In this document: positions 37,737 to 48,457 of the stretch, piece by piece
How positions within the stretch are numbered: position 1 is the stretch's first letter
Layout: each line of letters begins with the position of its first letter
IMG/VR virus record: IMGVR_UViG_3300037851_000839
Location: 1-60,743 of that record
Source: a virus
Taxonomy: Duplodnaviria; Caudoviricetes
Length of the DNA: 60,743 nucleotides
Strand: one strand, 5' to 3'
Program-made: the position numbers and the translations under genes
The notes under the pieces: generated by a model
What the model was told of the DNA's origin: nothing
The model's database searches: none
The model's input: the letters and a program-made list of their open reading frames with translations, nothing else

Positions 37737-38081
37737 TCACCAGCGGTCGGAGTCTCGTTGCCGGCGGCGGTCGCGACGGTCGTCGTCTCGGTGACCGTCG
37801 TGGCGCTGGCCACGCCCGCCGGCAGGACGTTCTCGCTCGTGGGCCTCGTTGACGCGGATCGGACGGCCGGAGATCAGCGTGCCGTCGGCGACGGCGATGG
37901 CCTCCTTGGCCTTCTCCGGAGACTCCAGCTCGACGAAGCCGAAGCCACGCGCCTGACCGGTCTCCCGGTCGGTGACGATGGTCACCGTGCGCGGCGGATA
38001 GCCGAGGCCGACGAAGGCGTCGCGCAGATCGCGCTCGGTGGCGGTGTAGGACAGGTTCCCGATGAACAGACGAGAGGACAT
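37737..38081 (-). CDS. RRM RNA-binding protein
   Basis: RNP2 LFIGNL, RNP1 RGFGFVEL, IRVNEA. Confidence 0.93.
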   Translation of the reverse strand: MSSRLFIGNLSYTATERDLRDAFVGLGYPPRTVTIVTDRETGQARGFGFVELESPEKAKEAIAVADGTLISGRPIRVNEAHERERPAGGRGQRHDGHRDDDRRDRRRQRDSDRW

Positions 38082-38951: not shown

Positions 38952-40544
38952 TCAGAGGGTGACGGCCTCGACCTTCTTCATCCAGTGATCCCGACCGTTG
39001 CCGGCCGAGAACTCGGAGATGAGGGTGAAGACCTCATCGGAGAAGCCGCCGACGTTGAGGATGTCCTCGCGCGTCGGAGCCTGACGGGTGCCGTTCGGCG
39101 TGATGTCGATGCAGACCATCTTCGCATTCGGGCAGCGAGCGCGCAGCGCCTCCCACTCGACCATGGTCTGGGTGGGCGAACTGGTGAGGCCGGGGTACAG
39201 CGAAGTCGCGAAGCCCGGCCGGCTGTCCATCCACGACTCGTTGTCCGAGACGAAGACGGCCAGGTCGATCTTGGCCTTCTCGTGGTTCAGGTAGCGGAGC
39301 GGCGCCGAGCAGTTGGTGCCGCCGGAGCCGCACTTCGCGATCTTCTCGGCGATGGAGACGATCGAGTCGCGCGGGTTGATCCGCAGCCGGACCACGTCCT
39401 CCTTGAAGGGCAGCACGATGGCGTCCGGGTTCCGACGCATGAGCGTCGCGGCGACAAGCGCCGCCACGTCACGGCACTTGACCTTGGTGGTCGCGGTGCC
39501 GCGCGCCCCGGTGACCGGAGAGTCCATCGAGCCGGACACGTCCGGGAAGACGGCCAGGCGCCCCTGGACCTCGGGGACGTTCTTGGTCGCGATCTCCATC
39601 GCGTCCTGGAGCGCCGACTGGATCTCCATCGGGACCCCCTCGGTGTTCTGGTACGCGACGAGGAGCTGGTACGGGAAGACCCGCGCCCGCTCGATCGCCT
39701 TCTCGTCCCGGAGCTTGTCCGCGACGAACTTGACCATCTCGCGGTCGTCGAACACGCCGTGCCGCTGGAAGGTGTTCAGGTTCATCCTGACGGTCTGCCA
39801 GGACGCCTGACGCGCGACGGACGCCCACTGCTCCTTCGTGAGCTTCACGGAGGTGAGCATCTGGAACGGCACGTCCGGCACCGGACGCGACGGGTCCAGC
39901 TTCCACGCCTCGAACGCCTGAACCAGTTCGTCGAGCGTCGCCACGTCGTGCGGCTTGCCGATCAGGTAGGCATAGAGACCCTTCCGAGCGTCCGAAGACG
40001 GCTTCGGGTGGACCATCTTGACCACGTCCGCGAGGCTCGGGTCGTTGCCGACCGATCCGCGGAAGAGCTGTGCATCCGACCTCGCACCGAACCAGCCCTG
40101 GATGAGCTTCTTCGGAGCGGAACCGAGCGACTTCCGGCCAACCTTGCCCGACCGGAGGATCTGGACGAACGTCCTGAGCATCCTCGGGTTGTCGATCACG
40201 CGCGGGAACGCCACGCGCATCGCGGCGATACCGTCCTCACCGCGGGTCGCGAGATGGGCGACCAGAAGTGCCGGCGTATCCTTCATGAAGGCCGAACTGC
40301 GTCCGTAGATCGCGAGCTTCGCCAGGAACTCCGGTGAGCACTTCGCCGCCAGTTCCAGGATCTTGTCGAGCTGCTCCTCCGCCGAGGCGTAGAAGGTGGC
40401 TCCGAGGCATCCCGTGGTGACGTACTGGGCCAGCGCCTCCTGGGGCCCCGCCTCGTACGCGATCCCGCCCGCGCTGTTGATGGTGTTCGTGGCCGGCGGC
40501 GTACGCCCCGGCTTCGCCGACTTGAAGAGCTGCTTGTTGGCCAT
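38952..40544 (-). CDS. rsr: Ro60/TROVE domain RNA-binding protein (Rsr)
   Basis: N.AGG.AY, TG....TFY, MKDTPA, HPKP, RMNLNTF.R, RVFPYQL, vWA DVSGSM, GGTNC, SDNESW, VGGFSD. Confidence 0.95.
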   Translation of the reverse strand: MANKQLFKSAKPGRTPPATNTINSAGGIAYEAGPQEALAQYVTTGCLGATFYASAEEQLDKILELAAKCSPEFLAKLAIYGRSSAFMKDTPALLVAHLATRGEDGIAAMRVAFPRVIDNPRMLRTFVQILRSGKVGRKSLGSAPKKLIQGWFGARSDAQLFRGSVGNDPSLADVVKMVHPKPSSDARKGLYAYLIGKPHDVATLDELVQAFEAWKLDPSRPVPDVPFQMLTSVKLTKEQWASVARQASWQTVRMNLNTFQRHGVFDDREMVKFVADKLRDEKAIERARVFPYQLLVAYQNTEGVPMEIQSALQDAMEIATKNVPEVQGRLAVFPDVSGSMDSPVTGARGTATTKVKCRDVAALVAATLMRRNPDAIVLPFKEDVVRLRINPRDSIVSIAEKIAKCGSGGTNCSAPLRYLNHEKAKIDLAVFVSDNESWMDSRPGFATSLYPGLTSSPTQTMVEWEALRARCPNAKMVCIDITPNGTRQAPTREDILNVGGFSDEVFTLISEFSAGNGRDHWMKKVEAVTL

Positions 40545-40567
40545 AGTCCAACCTCCTGTATCAGCGC

Positions 40568-40595
40568 ATCTTGCGTGATGCGATGAGTTTGTCAA
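40568..40595 (-). promoter_or_regulatory. Promoter TTGACA-N16-CAAGAT upstream of Ro60
   Basis: Motif family. Confidence 0.55.
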
Positions 40596-47122: not shown

Positions 47123-47195
47123 GTGGTCGAGCGGAGTCGAACCGCCTTGCACCCGGGTCACAACCGAGCCCCTCCACCACTTCGGGATCGACCAC
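47123..47195 (-). tRNA. tRNA-His(GTG)
   Basis: G-1:C73 pair, loop TTGTGAC. Confidence 0.82.
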
Positions 47196-47207
47196 CATGT
47201 GAAAGAT

Positions 47208-47344
47208 GGGAGACAAGAGATGCTAGGACGTGTTTTTCCCGCTCTACCAACTGAGCTACCACCCCATGAGAAGTGGGGCGGGCTGGACTCGAACCAGCGA
47301 CCAGGGGCTTATGTGGCCATGTAGTCCTTCGCGAACATTCTCCC
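47208..47344 (-). ncRNA. yrlA: YrlA-type Y RNA
   Basis: 5' GGGAGAATG...GGACTACAT, T arm GCTGGTTCGAGTCCAGC, loop-closed acceptor stem, D arm TAGCTCAGTTGGTAGAGC, 3' GTCC...CTTGTCTCCC; Ro60 gene in the same array. Confidence 0.85.
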
Positions 47345-47347
47345 AAG

Positions 47348-47420
47348 CGTCCTCGGCAGGACTCGAACCTGCGACCACCCGCTTAGGAAGCGGATGCTCT
47401 ATCCACTGAGCTACGAGGAC
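47348..47420 (-). tRNA. tRNA-Arg(CCT)
   Basis: Loop TTCCTAA. Confidence 0.92.
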
Positions 47421-47421
47421 A

Positions 47422-47544
47422 TGGTGGAGGCTGACCGGTCGGGGATCCCGGTCTTTGGTCGAAGTTACGGTTCGATTGTGATGTAGTCCCTGCCCAGCAT
47501 TCGCTTGCGCGACAAGTTCGGGTGGACAGCCCTATCGAGCCTCC
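47422..47544 (-). ncRNA. Circularly permuted Y-RNA-like RNA with acceptor stem and ACCA end
   Basis: GGAGGCT/AGCCTCC-ACCA; GTCC..CTTGTCGC-GCAA-GCGAATG..GGACTACAT. Confidence 0.7.
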
Positions 47545-47559
47545 GTATGAGGAAAGAAA

Positions 47560-47634
47560 CGTCCCGTGGGGGATTTGAACCCACCGTCGCCCGAGTGAGA
47601 GTCGAGCATCCTTGGCCATCTAGACGAACGGGAC
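47560..47634 (-). tRNA. tRNA-Glu(CTC)
   Basis: Loop CTCTCAC. Confidence 0.88.
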
Positions 47635-47721
47635 ATTGAGTGAGACGAGGGACGCAGTGACAGACCTGACCAGCCGGAGCTGGACTCGCCCGGTTACCCA
47701 GACCGTGACCTATGGAACCAG

Positions 47722-47795
47722 CTCCAGGGGAGGGACTCGAACCCCCAACATCCCGTTGAACAGACGGGCGTCGCTCCATTTGACTCTTCCCTGGA
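47722..47795 (-). tRNA. tRNA-Asn(GTT), C37
   Basis: TCC acceptor start, G73, loop CTGTTCA. Confidence 0.8.
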
Positions 47796-47799
47796 ATAC

Positions 47800-47863
47800 G
47801 GGCGACGAGAGATCGCGAGAGGGTTGATCTGTACAAGAGATGTACTCCCGCTGGCATTCGCCC
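47800..47863 (-). ncRNA. Minimal Y-RNA-like hairpin (64 nt)
   Basis: GGGCGAATG...TACAT / ATCTCTCGTCGCCC mirrors the YrlA terminal stem. Confidence 0.7.
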
Positions 47864-47865
47864 TA

Positions 47866-47931
47866 CGATGGGGGTGGGAGTTGAACCCACGCACTTCGGT
47901 CTAAACAGACCGAACTGCACCCTGACCCATC
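47866..47931 (-). pseudogene. Degenerate tRNA-like copy overlapping HNH 3' end
   Basis: T arm GTGGG-TTCAACT-CCCAC, 3' CCCCATCG identical to the tRNA at 48288; 8-nt loop CTGTTTAG; no D arm. Confidence 0.6.
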
Positions 47932-48266
47932 TCCTCGTGAATCTCCCGGTGACAGTTCGCGCACACGAGAATGCACTTAGCTGCTTCGGCTCGCATGGTT
48001 GCGATGCCGTTCGTGTTGCCTGAACCGAGTACCACCGGGTCTTTCTGACTCGGATCCTTATGGTGGAACTCCAGAGCCGCCTTGCACTTGGAGTACCCGC
48101 ACCGAGAACAGGCTCCGCCGTGCTCCGCAACAAGTATCTCCCTCACCCGCCTTCGGCGACCCGTGACGGAATCGATCTGACACCGCTTGCACCGCACTCG
48201 GTGCTTGAAGACGTAGTAGTCGCACTCGCCATGCTTCGGACAGAACCTTCGTACCATTTGCGGCAT
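47901..48266 (-). CDS. Small HNH endonuclease
   Basis: CPKHG, CKRC, GGACSRCGY....ALEFHH.DP..K, KCILVCANCHREIH. Confidence 0.88.
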   Translation of the reverse strand: MPQMVRRFCPKHGECDYYVFKHRVRCKRCQIDSVTGRRRRVREILVAEHGGACSRCGYSKCKAALEFHHKDPSQKDPVVLGSGNTNGIATMRAEAAKCILVCANCHREIHEEMGQGAVRSV

Positions 48267-48287
48267 AACTTCCTAAGTTCTACCACA

Positions 48288-48360
48288 CGATGGGGGAGGG
48301 AGTCGAACCCCCGACCAACAGGCTAACAGTCTGCCGCTCTAACCACTGAGCTACCCCACC
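48288..48360 (-). tRNA. tRNA-Asn(GTT), second copy with different acceptor
   Basis: GGTGGGG/CCCCATC, loop CTGTTAG, G73. Confidence 0.8.
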
Positions 48361-48457
48361 ATCTGGTCGGGCCCTCGCACGCGCGCGCCCGTATGGGCAC
48401 GACCGCGCGTGCGAGTCCCTTCCCGCGGCCCCCGTGGGGACCGCCTGAATGGCTTCC

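What the first reader, a model, noticed from the sequence alone, without database searches (positions are those of the whole stretch)
47422..47544. Circularly permuted, CCA-ended Y RNA (tRNA-order Y RNA)
Seen: this 123-nt minus-strand unit has a perfect 7-bp acceptor stem GGAGGCT/AGCCTCC plus encoded ACCA, preceded by a T-arm-positioned hairpin GACCGG-GATCCCCGA-CCGGTC. Its middle carries both strands of the neighbouring YrlA terminal helix in reversed order (GTCC-N7-CTTGTC first, then GAATG-N8-GGACTACAT; YrlA has GAATG-N8-GGACTACAT ... GTCC-N8-CTTGTC), joined by TCGC-GCAA-GCGA exactly where YrlA has its free ends. Established: YrlA RNAs have free ends at the Ro60-binding stem and a loop-closed acceptor stem. 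Inference: this is the reciprocal permutation, a Ro60-binding RNA with a processable and possibly aminoacylatable 3' CCA end, which could link Ro60 to tRNA processing or translation. I do not recall this topology being described.
Basis: partly seen in the sequence, partly recalled or inferred. Interest (0 to 1): 0.9.

Follow-up and report, generated by a model that had tools for sequence, protein, structure and literature searches.

The report
tRNA-framed Y RNA in phage
A phage that carries the RNA-surveillance protein Ro60 also encodes a small RNA whose ends look like a tRNA's amino-acid-accepting end, while its middle is a closed copy of the helix that Ro60 normally grips; this is an unusual, stripped-down member of a wider and apparently undescribed group of "tRNA-order" Y RNAs.

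Summary
On the minus strand, 47544..47422 has a perfect 7-bp terminal stem, an encoded ACCA, a 6-bp hairpin stacked under that stem, and both strands of the Y-RNA Ro60-binding helix in reversed order, closed by UCGC-GCAA-GCGA.

A covariance model of closed Y modules, built only from other DNA, hits 47529..47481 at 33.6 bits. It is the only significant hit in the window.

The topology recurs. I found at least 26 tRNA-order Y RNAs: a full cloverleaf with the anticodon arm replaced by the closed Y module. Many lie directly downstream of Ro60 genes in Myxococcota genomes and in phage contigs. Covariation is strong, with 22 of 32 pairs showing double changes.

The window's copy is atypical. It has no D arm and no canonical T loop, but it does have an encoded CCA. 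Between related phages it is as conserved as the tRNAs are.

Ro60 binding, end processing and aminoacylation were not tested. No searched paper describes this gene order. Two earlier notes of this scan report the same design on other DNA.

Verdict: a new variant of a known kind.

The parts
47422..47544 (-). The whole 123-nt unit: a tRNA-framed (tRNA-order) Y-like RNA gene.
   Evidence: Sequence read and fold. It is 120/123 identical in the related contig L021:2818-2940. A third relative, a contig of run X3, differs at 2 positions.
47538..47544 (-). Acceptor-like stem, 5' strand (GGAGGCU).
   Evidence: Pairs perfectly with 47426-47432. Pair probabilities are 1.0 for six pairs and 0.61 for the seventh, U7-A113.
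47426..47432 (-). Acceptor-like stem, 3' strand (AGCCUCC).
47422..47425 (-). Encoded discriminator A plus CCA. One further nucleotide (U) separates it from the first base of tRNA-Arg.
   Evidence: Only 1 of 30 tRNA genes in the window (tRNA-His) encodes N-CCA. ACCA is conserved in L021.
47481..47529 (-). Hairpin-closed Y module (putative Ro60-binding helix): GUCC / CCCG / AACUUG / UCGC-GCAA-GCGA / AUGC / UGGG / GGAC-UACAU.
   Evidence: Model R2, built from 16 closed modules of other loci, matches at 33.6 bits over all 48 positions and is the only significant hit in the window. The motifs match the Rfam YrlA consensus strands in reversed order (alignment).
47501..47512 (-). Closing helix UCGC/GCGA with a GCAA tetraloop, at the place where YrlA has its free ends.
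   Evidence: Pair probabilities are 0.87-0.91. An identical closure occurs in L189:1556-1682.
47433..47453 (-). Hairpin of 6 bp with a 9-nt loop, stacked on the acceptor stem. It sits where a T arm would, but is not a canonical T loop.
   Evidence: pair probabilities 0.95. L021 carries a G-to-A change that makes a C.A mismatch here, and a loop C-to-U change that is shared with the X3 contig.
47459..47475 (-). Alternative hairpin UCGAA-CCGUAAC-UUCGA (5 bp, 7-nt loop). It is mutually exclusive with the short stem listed next.
   Evidence: Pair probabilities are 0.36-0.44. The loop matches the anticodon loop of the window's tRNA-Tyr (CUGUAAC) at 6 of 7 positions.
47472..47475 (-). UCGA, able to pair with UCGA at 47535-47538. 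This is the equivalent of the upper anticodon stem of the wider class.
   Evidence: Model R1 aligns these to its anticodon-stem-top pairs. Pair probabilities are 0.50-0.54.
47204..47345 (-). Neighbouring ordinary YrlA-type Y RNA with free ends at the Ro60 helix and a loop-closed 7-bp acceptor stem.
   Evidence: Rfam RF02553, 42.2 bits, E 7e-8, full length but below the gathering score of 69. The L021 copy scores 52.2 bits.
47800..47863 (-). Small Y-like hairpin in ordinary topology, without a tRNA-like part.
   Evidence: Read. The L021 copy gives a weak Rfam YrlA match of 29.1 bits.
38952..40595 (-). Ro60 (TROVE / vWA_Ro60) gene, the presumed protein partner.
   Evidence: Pfam PF25045 at 2e-20 and PF05731 at 8e-8. 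Its closest named phage relative is Myxococcus phage Mx1, at 46.5% identity.
47559..47635 (-). tRNA-Glu(CUC), immediately upstream of the unit with a 14-nt spacer.
   Evidence: ARAGORN and Rfam.
47347..47420 (-). tRNA-Arg(CCU), starting 1 nt after the unit's ACCA. RNase P cleavage at its 5' end would leave the unit with a 1-nt trailer.
   Evidence: The processing step is inferred.

Best explanation
The unit is a phage-encoded Y RNA laid out in tRNA gene order.

- Layout: its two ends pair into a 7-bp acceptor-like stem that carries an encoded ACCA and stacks on a 6-bp hairpin. Its interior is a hairpin-closed copy of the Ro60-binding Y helix.
- Relationship to a wider class: it is a reduced relative of tRNA-order Y RNAs, which have a full tRNA cloverleaf with the anticodon arm replaced by the closed Y module. 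I found that class next to Ro60 genes in Myxococcota genomes and in phage contigs. The window's copy has lost the D arm and the canonical T loop.
- Inferred working: it is transcribed as part of the tRNA array. RNase P cuts its 5' end, and RNase P cleavage of the next tRNA, 1 nt downstream, leaves a one-base 3' trailer that is trimmed back to CCA. The closed module docks on the phage Ro60. The free minihelix-CCA end is then presented as the effector or tether end, in place of the loop-closed tRNA mimic of YrlA.

Shown here: the sequence features, module homology, existence and covariation of the class, linkage to Ro60 genes, and conservation. Inferred: transcription, end processing, Ro60 binding, and any use of the CCA end.
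For: 1. All the features are present.
2. Model R2, built from 16 closed modules of other loci, hits 47529..47481 at 33.6 bits over its full length. The next best hit in 60.7 kb on both strands, with filters off, is 16.7 bits. The L021 copy scores 34.9 bits.
3. The class is real.
   - In the 14-sequence alignment A4, 97.5% of cells are paired, 22 of 32 pairs have changes on both sides, and 0 of 500 shuffles reach this. Slid controls give 41-49% paired.
   - Model R1 finds 12 further full-length members at 48.9-112.6 bits. Their acceptor stems show 78 of 84 pairs in the CM-fitted alignment.
   - Neighbouring units in one array carry different acceptor sequences that pair only within the tRNA-order reading.
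4. Ro60 linkage. Ro60 lies on the same strand, directly upstream of the units, in L178, L189, L190, L196, L223, L225, L084, L145 and L038/L039. The window and the record of L156 also encode Ro60/TROVE.
5. Model R1 aligns the unit's UCGA/UCGA pair to the anticodon-stem top of the class.
6. Conservation against L021: the unit is 97.6% identical (3 differences in 123) and the tRNAs 98.7-100%, versus 92.3% for YrlA and 73-75% for the spacers. Fisher's test of unit versus spacers gives p = 5e-4. A third relative, the X3 contig, has only 2 changes in the unit but 4 in the 14-nt spacer.
7. Only 1 of 30 tRNA genes in the window encodes CCA, so the unit's encoded ACCA is not a local habit.
8. L156 shows the same placement: a canonical class member sits inside a phage tRNA array, 5 nt before the next tRNA.
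Against: - The unit lacks the D arm and has a 9-nt non-canonical loop. Model R1 therefore gives only a partial 21-bit match over model positions 10-93.
- Rfam tRNA, Rfam YrlA and ARAGORN do not detect it.
- Its module scores below the canonical members (33.6 versus 53-70 bits). That is in the range of tandem Y-Y junctions, which score 23-38 bits.
- Only three near-identical copies are known, so the unit itself has no covariation. One of the three changes in L021 breaks a pair in the hairpin.
- None of the relatives with Ro60 68-73% identical (L024-L028) has a closed module at E <= 0.05, so the lineage is narrow.
- The folding z-score is only -1.91.
- My seed set was chosen by requiring a perfect acceptor stem and a T stem, which inflates the pairing figures for those two helices.
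- There is no experimental evidence for expression, RNA ends or Ro60 binding.
Confidence: 0.6

Rival explanations
1. It is a decaying remnant: a former full tRNA-order Y RNA, or a tRNA/Y recombinant, that has lost its D arm and T loop and is no longer functional. It persists only because the lineage is young.
For: There is no D arm and no canonical T loop, and only a partial R1 match. L021 carries a stem-breaking change. The element is seen only in three near-identical genomes. The array contains other debris: a tRNA-Asn 3' fragment after an HNH gene, and a truncated Y at 47640-47720.
Against: All 7 + 6 + 4 + 4 + 4 stem pairs are intact in the window. The unit is conserved at tRNA level, whereas spacers and even YrlA diverge more. 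The encoded ACCA is unusual for this array, found in 1 of 30 tRNAs. The truncated Y fragment beside it is only 60% identical to L021, which shows what neutral decay looks like in this region.
Confidence: 0.2
2. It is a tRNA-Tyr-derived chimera in which the Y module replaces the D arm rather than the anticodon arm. The hairpin UCGAA-CCGUAAC-UUCGA would then be a true anticodon arm with GUA. The RNA might act as a Ro60-bound mimic or decoy of tRNA-Tyr.
For: The hairpin has a 5-bp stem and a 7-nt loop, followed by 5 nt and then the next hairpin, which is tRNA-like spacing. Its loop matches the window tRNA-Tyr anticodon loop at 6 of 7 positions, and the two share GGAG...CUCC-A at the acceptor end. 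This fold has nearly the same predicted energy as the MFE, -41.7 versus -42.5 kcal/mol. Several defence systems are reported to target tRNA-Tyr; I saw only the abstract starts in the listing (PMC11555353, PMC13096335, PMC12673091).
Against: The resemblance was noticed post hoc. My rough estimate, not a tool result, is about 0.04 for a 6-of-7 loop match to any of 30 tRNAs. U33 is replaced by C. Model R1 aligns the region in the other way, with the Y module in the anticodon-arm position. Pair probabilities favour the competing stem slightly, 0.50-0.54 versus 0.36-0.44. No covariation is available.
Confidence: 0.1
3. It is not a separate RNA. The reversed strands are merely the junction of two tandem Y RNAs, the 3' strand of one and the 5' strand of the next, or else a chance arrangement.
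For: Such junctions are common. Many R2 hits of 23-38 bits with 60-80-nt spans are tandem junctions. Most raw pattern matches were chance matches in coding DNA.
Against: Genuine tRNAs flank the unit on both sides. No partner strands exist for a Y RNA on either side. The two strands are joined by a 4-bp stem and a tetraloop, which is the compact form seen in canonical class members. The terminal stem with CCA arises in only 0.12% of shuffles.
Confidence: 0.05

Closest known systems
YrlA (Rfam RF02553), the tRNA-like Y RNA of bacteria and actinophages (Chen et al. 2014, PMC4201824; Wang et al. 2018 preprint, 10.1101/312249)
   Same: It has the same Ro60-helix motifs (GAAUGC ... GGACUACAU on one strand, GUCY ... 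CUYGUC on the other). It is associated with a Ro60 gene, has tRNA-derived parts, and lies in a phage tRNA array.
   Different: The gene order is the circular permutation. The ends lie at the acceptor stem instead of the Ro60 helix, and the Ro60 helix is closed by a tetraloop. There is no D arm and no canonical T loop. The Rfam model gives no match at E <= 10.
Processed M. smegmatis YrlA: cut by RNase P in the acceptor loop and extended with CCA in vivo (Chen et al. 2014; passages read)
   Same: It ends up with an open acceptor stem carrying CCA on a Ro60-bound RNA.
   Different: That RNA becomes two pieces held together by base pairing, and its Ro60 helix keeps free ends. Here a single chain is encoded in tRNA order, with the CCA in the gene.
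tRNA-order Y RNAs found here (models R1 and R2; for example L189:1556-1682, L196:1287-1412, L038:11870-12001, L156:5893-6015). The same design is noted on other DNA in scan notes e1-5529253 and e1-5486589.
   Same: It shares the closed Y module, including an identical UCGC-GCAA-GCGA closure in one member. It also shares the 7-bp acceptor stem, the short upper anticodon stem, the Ro60 context, and placement among tRNAs or after rsr.
   Different: Those members have canonical D and T arms, are hit by Rfam tRNA at 40-55 bits, and do not encode CCA. The window's unit has none of these three properties.
D. radiodurans Yrn1 (Chen et al. 2014; passage read)
   Same: It is a Y RNA with tRNA-like pieces whose orientation relative to the Ro60 helix differs from YrlA, and it includes an anticodon-like arm.
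   Different: Yrn1 still has its ends at the Ro60 helix and has no acceptor end with CCA.
tmRNA and viral tRNA-like structures, as discussed in Wang et al. 2018
   Same: They are non-decoding RNAs with an acceptor stem and a free CCA end.
   Different: Those are aminoacylated and act in translation or replication. No such evidence exists here, there is no Rfam tmRNA match to the unit, and no identity elements are conserved in the class.
Thermus phage phiLo Yrl1/Yrl2 with phage Ro60 (PMC12135203; passages read)
   Same: They are phage-encoded Y-like RNAs bound by a phage Ro60. Their CGAA-type motif lies in an internal bulge.
   Different: Those are described with a 5'-3' stem. No tRNA frame or CCA end is reported in the passages I read.

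Membership tests
YrlA (Rfam RF02553) | Match to the Rfam covariance model at or above the gathering score of 69 bits. | tested here: not met
   There is no YrlA hit on 47422-47544 even at E <= 10. The neighbour at 47204-47345 scores 42.2 bits.
YrlA (Rfam RF02553) | Ro60-binding helix formed by the RNA's own 5' and 3' ends. | tested here: not met
   The strands are in reversed order and joined by UCGC-GCAA-GCGA.
YrlA (Rfam RF02553) | Conserved Ro60-helix sequence motifs. | tested here: met
   GAAUGC, GGACUACAU, GUCC and CUUGUC are all present. Model R2 scores 33.6 bits. Compare the consensus in the alignment.
YrlA (Rfam RF02553) | tRNA-like domain with a T arm, a loop-closed acceptor stem and a D arm. 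| tested here: not met
   The acceptor stem is open, there is no D arm, and the loop is GAUCCCCGA instead of UUCRANY.
YrlA (Rfam RF02553) | Encoded near a Ro60 gene (Chen et al. used a limit of 4 kb). | tested here: inconclusive
   Ro60 is on the same strand but 6.8 kb away, with the tRNA array in between.
tRNA (Rfam RF00005 / ARAGORN) | Cloverleaf detected by tRNA models. | tested here: not met
   There is no RF00005 hit at E <= 10 and ARAGORN makes no call.
tRNA (Rfam RF00005 / ARAGORN) | 7-bp acceptor stem, a discriminator base and a CCA end. | tested here: met
   GGAGGCU/AGCCUCC plus ACCA is encoded. Whether the mature RNA ends there was not tested.
tRNA-order Y RNA (class defined here by R1/R2) | Compact hairpin-closed Y module. 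| tested here: met
   R2 full-length hit at 33.6 bits. This is lower than canonical members, which score 53-70 bits.
tRNA-order Y RNA (class defined here by R1/R2) | Acceptor stem formed by the ends, plus a short upper anticodon stem flanking the module. | tested here: met
   The acceptor stem is perfect. UCGA/UCGA is aligned to the anticodon-stem-top pairs, although it competes with another hairpin.
tRNA-order Y RNA (class defined here by R1/R2) | Canonical D arm and T arm (tRNA elbow). | tested here: not met
   R1 matches only model positions 10-93 at 21 bits. Its 'D arm' alignment uses spacer bases.
tRNA-order Y RNA (class defined here by R1/R2) | Ro60 gene in the same genome or locus. | tested here: met
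Y RNA (functional definition) | Bound by Ro60 in vivo or in vitro. | not testable with these tools
   This needs EMSA or RIP. The complex predictor offered here takes proteins only, so it was not used.

The most novel reading that the evidence does not exclude
The free minihelix-CCA end is functional. The phage would make a Ro60-bound RNA that is charged, or is otherwise handled as a tRNA by CCA-adding enzyme, EF-Tu, an aminoacyl-tRNA synthetase such as TyrRS, or a tRNA-targeting defence nuclease. Ro60 would thereby be coupled physically to the tRNA or translation machinery. Alternatively the RNA could act as a Ro60-guarded decoy for host anticodon or acceptor nucleases during infection. More broadly, tRNA-order Y RNAs would be the ancestral form from which permuted YrlA arose.
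Probability: 0.1. Interest if true: 0.85.

Novelty: new variant of a known kind. Interest (0 to 1): 0.65.

Why it matters
Bacterial Y RNAs are known as tRNA mimics whose acceptor end is sealed. That is why they are thought not to enter tRNA pathways.

A genomically encoded form with tRNA ends turns this round. The class has a full cloverleaf next to rsr in Myxococcota and in phages. The window holds a stripped minihelix version with an encoded CCA. Such RNAs should be substrates of RNase P and of the 3'-end and CCA machinery, while carrying a Ro60 docking arm.

This has three consequences.
- It bears on how YrlA evolved from tRNA.
- It explains why some Ro60 loci lacked detectable YrlA. Chen et al. 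discarded hits overlapping annotated tandem tRNA genes and found few YrlA RNAs in delta-proteobacteria.
- It gives a concrete handle for testing whether Ro60 particles are linked to tRNA metabolism or to phage counter-defence. A Ro60-like phage protein was reported to counter the ppl system, and its authors suggested that some phage 'tRNA genes' may be Y RNAs.

Tried and rejected
- Similarity searches in named phages. Megablast of 47150-47950 found nothing. The sensitive search matched only the tRNA-Arg and part of YrlA.
- Myxococcus phage Mx1 (L022). Its array had no closed module.
- Raw pattern scans returned mostly chance matches in coding DNA or tandem Y-Y junctions.
  - Of the 19 viral stretches, R2 (E <= 0.05) confirmed only L009.
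  - Of the 23 viral stretches, R2 confirmed L156 and L163 (the L021 contig).
  - L014, which looked promising by eye, was not confirmed.
- Whole-unit model R1. It is not specific: it hits all ordinary tRNAs by skipping the module. I used it only with hit length and score, and built R2 for the module.
- Rows dropped before counting. L213 was dropped from the seed alignment because its D region is doubtful. L009 was dropped because MAFFT misaligned its shorter closure. L100 and L079 were dropped because a long variable arm shifts their columns. L009, L100 and L079 were recovered later by R1.
  - The first regex for closed modules was too strict and missed even the window's unit; it was fixed.
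  - A shuffle test for acceptor pairing around R2 hits was uninformative, because with G.U pairs and wide windows 131-200 of 200 shuffles did as well.
  - A positional D-arm/T-arm script was too brittle. I used the CM-fitted alignment instead, which leans towards the model's structure.
- L028 and L037. Their long R1 hits are cross-readings of tandem YrlA-order arrays, not tRNA-order units.
- Sequencing runs.
  - All four runs laid were contigs, so they give no RNA ends.
  - The metatranscriptome run X21 had one 335-nt contig over 47150-47435, covering YrlA, tRNA-Arg and the last 14 nt of the unit. It had no cover over the rest of the unit, and DNA carry-over cannot be excluded.
  - I draw no conclusion on expression.
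- L009's virus record had no TROVE match, but it is a fragment, 12% complete. L096 and L100 could not be searched as whole records.
- Tools not used. I did not re-permute the sequence for the Rfam YrlA model, because that would need a joined sequence to be typed into a tool; I tested the closed module with a model of closed modules instead. Complex prediction, structure prediction and the protein atlas were not used, as they do not address an RNA.
- Papers. The 2020 Annual Review on bacterial Ro60 (PMC10870794) is not held and supplements are closed. Supplemental Tables S1/S2 and Fig. S1 of Chen et al. 2014 could list myxobacterial or phage elements that bear on the novelty claim.
Full report
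**What is there.**
The window is a 60.7-kb virus record, about 32% complete. Its minus strand carries a 30-gene tRNA array and a Ro60 gene at 38952-40595 (Pfam vWA_Ro60 2e-20, TROVE 8e-8). The closest Ro60 in a named phage is that of Myxococcus phage Mx1, at 46.5% identity.

The unit lies between tRNA-Glu (47559-47635) and tRNA-Arg (47347-47420).
- GGAGGCU/AGCCUCC plus ACCA.
- The hairpin GACCGG-GAUCCCCGA-CCGGUC.
- GUCC-N7-CUUGUC, then UCGC-GCAA-GCGA, then (G)AAUG-N8-GGACUACAU.

The neighbour at 47345-47204 is an ordinary YrlA: Rfam RF02553, full length, 42.2 bits, E 7e-8, below the gathering score of 69. The unit itself matches no Rfam family at E <= 10 and is not called by ARAGORN.

**Is it more than chance?**
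- Predicted pair probabilities are about 1.0 for six of seven terminal pairs, 0.95 for the hairpin and about 0.9 for the closing helix. The overall z-score is a modest -1.91.
- Shuffles of the intergenic 138 nt give a perfect 7-bp terminal stem in 3.8% of 200,000 trials, and a stem followed by N-CCA in 0.12%.
- Only 1 of the 30 tRNA genes here, tRNA-His, encodes N-CCA.

**Is the middle really a Y module?**
I could not feed a re-permuted sequence to the Rfam model, so I tested the closed form directly. Pattern scans for the reversed motif order gave mostly chance hits and tandem Y-Y junctions. They also gave a set of compact closed modules.

A covariance model of 16 such modules from other DNA (R2) hits 47529..47481 over its full length at 33.6 bits, with a rough E of 5e-6. 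The next best hit in the whole window, both strands and filters off, is 16.7 bits.

**The topology is a class, not a one-off.**
The compact modules sit inside complete cloverleaves with this order:
- a 7-bp acceptor stem, then U8 and A9;
- a D arm (GCUC...GAGC);
- a 3-4-bp upper anticodon stem;
- the closed Y module;
- a 5-nt variable loop;
- a T arm (GGNGG-UUCGANU-CCNCC);
- the acceptor 3' strand.

Covariation on the 14-sequence alignment A4: 97.5% of cells pair and 22 of 32 pairs show changes on both sides. No shuffle of 500 reaches this, and slid controls give 41-49% paired. I chose these seeds by requiring a perfect acceptor stem and a T stem, so those two helices are biased. The module helices and the upper anticodon stem were not selected for.

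The whole-unit model R1 then found 12 further full-length members at 48.9-112.6 bits. These were not chosen by acceptor pairing, and 78 of 84 of their acceptor pairs form in the CM-fitted alignment.

Adjacent units in one array have different acceptor sequences that pair only in the tRNA-order reading. Rfam's tRNA model hits these elements end to end at 40-55 bits, while Rfam YrlA gives sub-threshold cross-unit readings. ARAGORN calls none of them.

**Link to Ro60.**
The units lie directly downstream of a Ro60 gene, on the same strand, in:
- six Myxococcota genome loci (L178, L189, L190, L196, L223, L225);
- two metagenome loci (L084, L145);
- the viral contigs L038/L039.

They usually come after one or two small ordinary Y RNAs. 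L156, a viral contig whose record has a TROVE ORF, carries a canonical unit inside a tRNA array, 5 nt before tRNA-Asn. That placement is the same as in the window.

**How the window's copy differs.**
- R1 gives only a partial 21-bit match, over model positions 10-93.
- It aligns UCGA (47538-47535) and UCGA (47475-47472) to the upper anticodon stem.
- No D arm exists: 10 nt stand between the acceptor stem and the module.
- The T-positioned loop is non-canonical.
- 18 nt separate the upper stem from the hairpin. Those 18 nt can instead form UCGAA-CCGUAAC-UUCGA, a 5-bp, 7-nt-loop hairpin whose loop matches the phage tRNA-Tyr anticodon loop at 6 of 7 positions.
- The two folds are nearly isoenergetic, at -39.8 and -41.7 kcal/mol against an MFE of -42.5. 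I cannot decide between them.

**Conservation.**
- In the related contig L021 (Ro60 92% identical) the unit is 120/123 identical. The tRNAs are 98.7-100% identical, YrlA 92.3%, the spacers 73-75%, and a truncated Y fragment 60%. Fisher's test of unit versus spacers gives p = 5e-4.
- A third relative, a 1-kb contig of run X3, has two changes in the unit. These are the same CUUG-to-CUCG change and loop C-to-U change seen in L021. It has four changes in the 14-nt spacer.
- One L021 change breaks a pair in the hairpin.
- With three near-identical copies there is no covariation for the unit itself.
- More distant relatives (L024-L028) lack a closed module.

**Mechanism.**
I think the unit is a working Ro60 partner RNA in tRNA order. 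It would be released from the array transcript by RNase P at its own 5' end and at the 5' end of tRNA-Arg, 1 nt past the CCA. The closed module would dock it on Ro60, leaving a free minihelix-CCA end exposed. These steps are inferred. A decaying remnant is the main rival.

Aminoacylation has no support. Discriminators vary in the class, and none of its members encodes N-CCA.

**Literature.**
- Chen et al. 2014 (passages) define YrlA. [quoted passage not shown] - Wang et al. 2018 (passages) call YrlA a circularly permuted tRNA and raise possible processing towards canonical order.
- A 2024 preprint (passage) suggests that some phage tRNA genes may be Y RNAs.
- A 2025 paper shows a phage Ro60 binding phage Y-like RNAs (passages).
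- I found no paper describing a genomically encoded tRNA-order Y RNA. Supplements and the 2020 Annual Review could not be read.
- Two earlier notes of this scan describe the same design on other DNA. They are not independent evidence, but my tests agree with them.

Noticed in passing
L178:2030-2520, L190:3540-4120, L196:960-1740 (-), L223:3895-4320: Myxococcota rsr loci share a fixed layout: the Ro60 gene, a GC-rich hairpin, two small ordinary Y RNAs, then one to three tRNA-order Y RNAs. Sometimes another Y 5' strand follows.
   Followed up: partly
L021:1313-2678: The close relative carries about 1.36 kb that the window lacks. It holds an HNH-like ORF, five extra tRNAs (Trp, Asp, Phe, Pro, Ala) and at least three more ordinary Y RNAs, each starting right after a tRNA. 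The array therefore alternates tRNA and Y RNA.
   Followed up: partly
window 47640-47720 (-): This is a truncated copy of a Y RNA that is complete in L021 (2640-2727). It is only 60% identical to L021 over this stretch, which serves as a local example of decay.
   Followed up: partly
window 47866-48266 (-): An HNH-type ORF (47901-48266; no Pfam hit at E <= 0.01, CxxC...H motifs read by eye) ends inside a tRNA-Asn-like 3' fragment just downstream of the intact tRNA-Asn (48287-48361). This looks like a homing-endonuclease insertion with a partial duplication.
   Followed up: no
window 47724-47793 (-): A tRNA-like element directly after the small Y RNA. Rfam tRNA scores it 31.2 bits (34 bits in L021), but ARAGORN does not call it. 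It has an odd acceptor stem and C at position 37.
   Followed up: no
L026:9423-9588: In a 252-kb viral contig whose Ro60 is 72% identical to the window's, about 400 nt upstream of Ro60, lies a 166-nt element with a tRNA acceptor stem, D and T arms and an encoded ACCA. About 90 nt without Y motifs stand in the anticodon position. It may be another kind of tRNA-framed RNA.
   Followed up: no
L189:1890-2170 (-) and L225:2620-2900: Tandem repeats of about 100 nt, in L189 with a T-arm-like piece and a hairpin, fill the gaps between tRNA-order units.
   Followed up: no
L038:11870-12600: Three tRNA-order Y RNAs lie right after a viral Ro60 gene. Two of them have a long (about 15 bp) closing helix instead of a tetraloop-capped 4-bp one. 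They are interleaved with small ordinary Y RNAs.
   Followed up: partly
window 37737-38081 (-): A stand-alone RRM-domain protein gene (PF00076, 9.7e-18) lies next to the tRNA array and Ro60.
   Followed up: no
window 47545-47552 with 47541-47544 (-): The spacer bases CCUC can pair with GAGG of the unit's 5' strand. Model R1 mistook this for a D arm. In the precursor it could compete with the acceptor stem.
   Followed up: no
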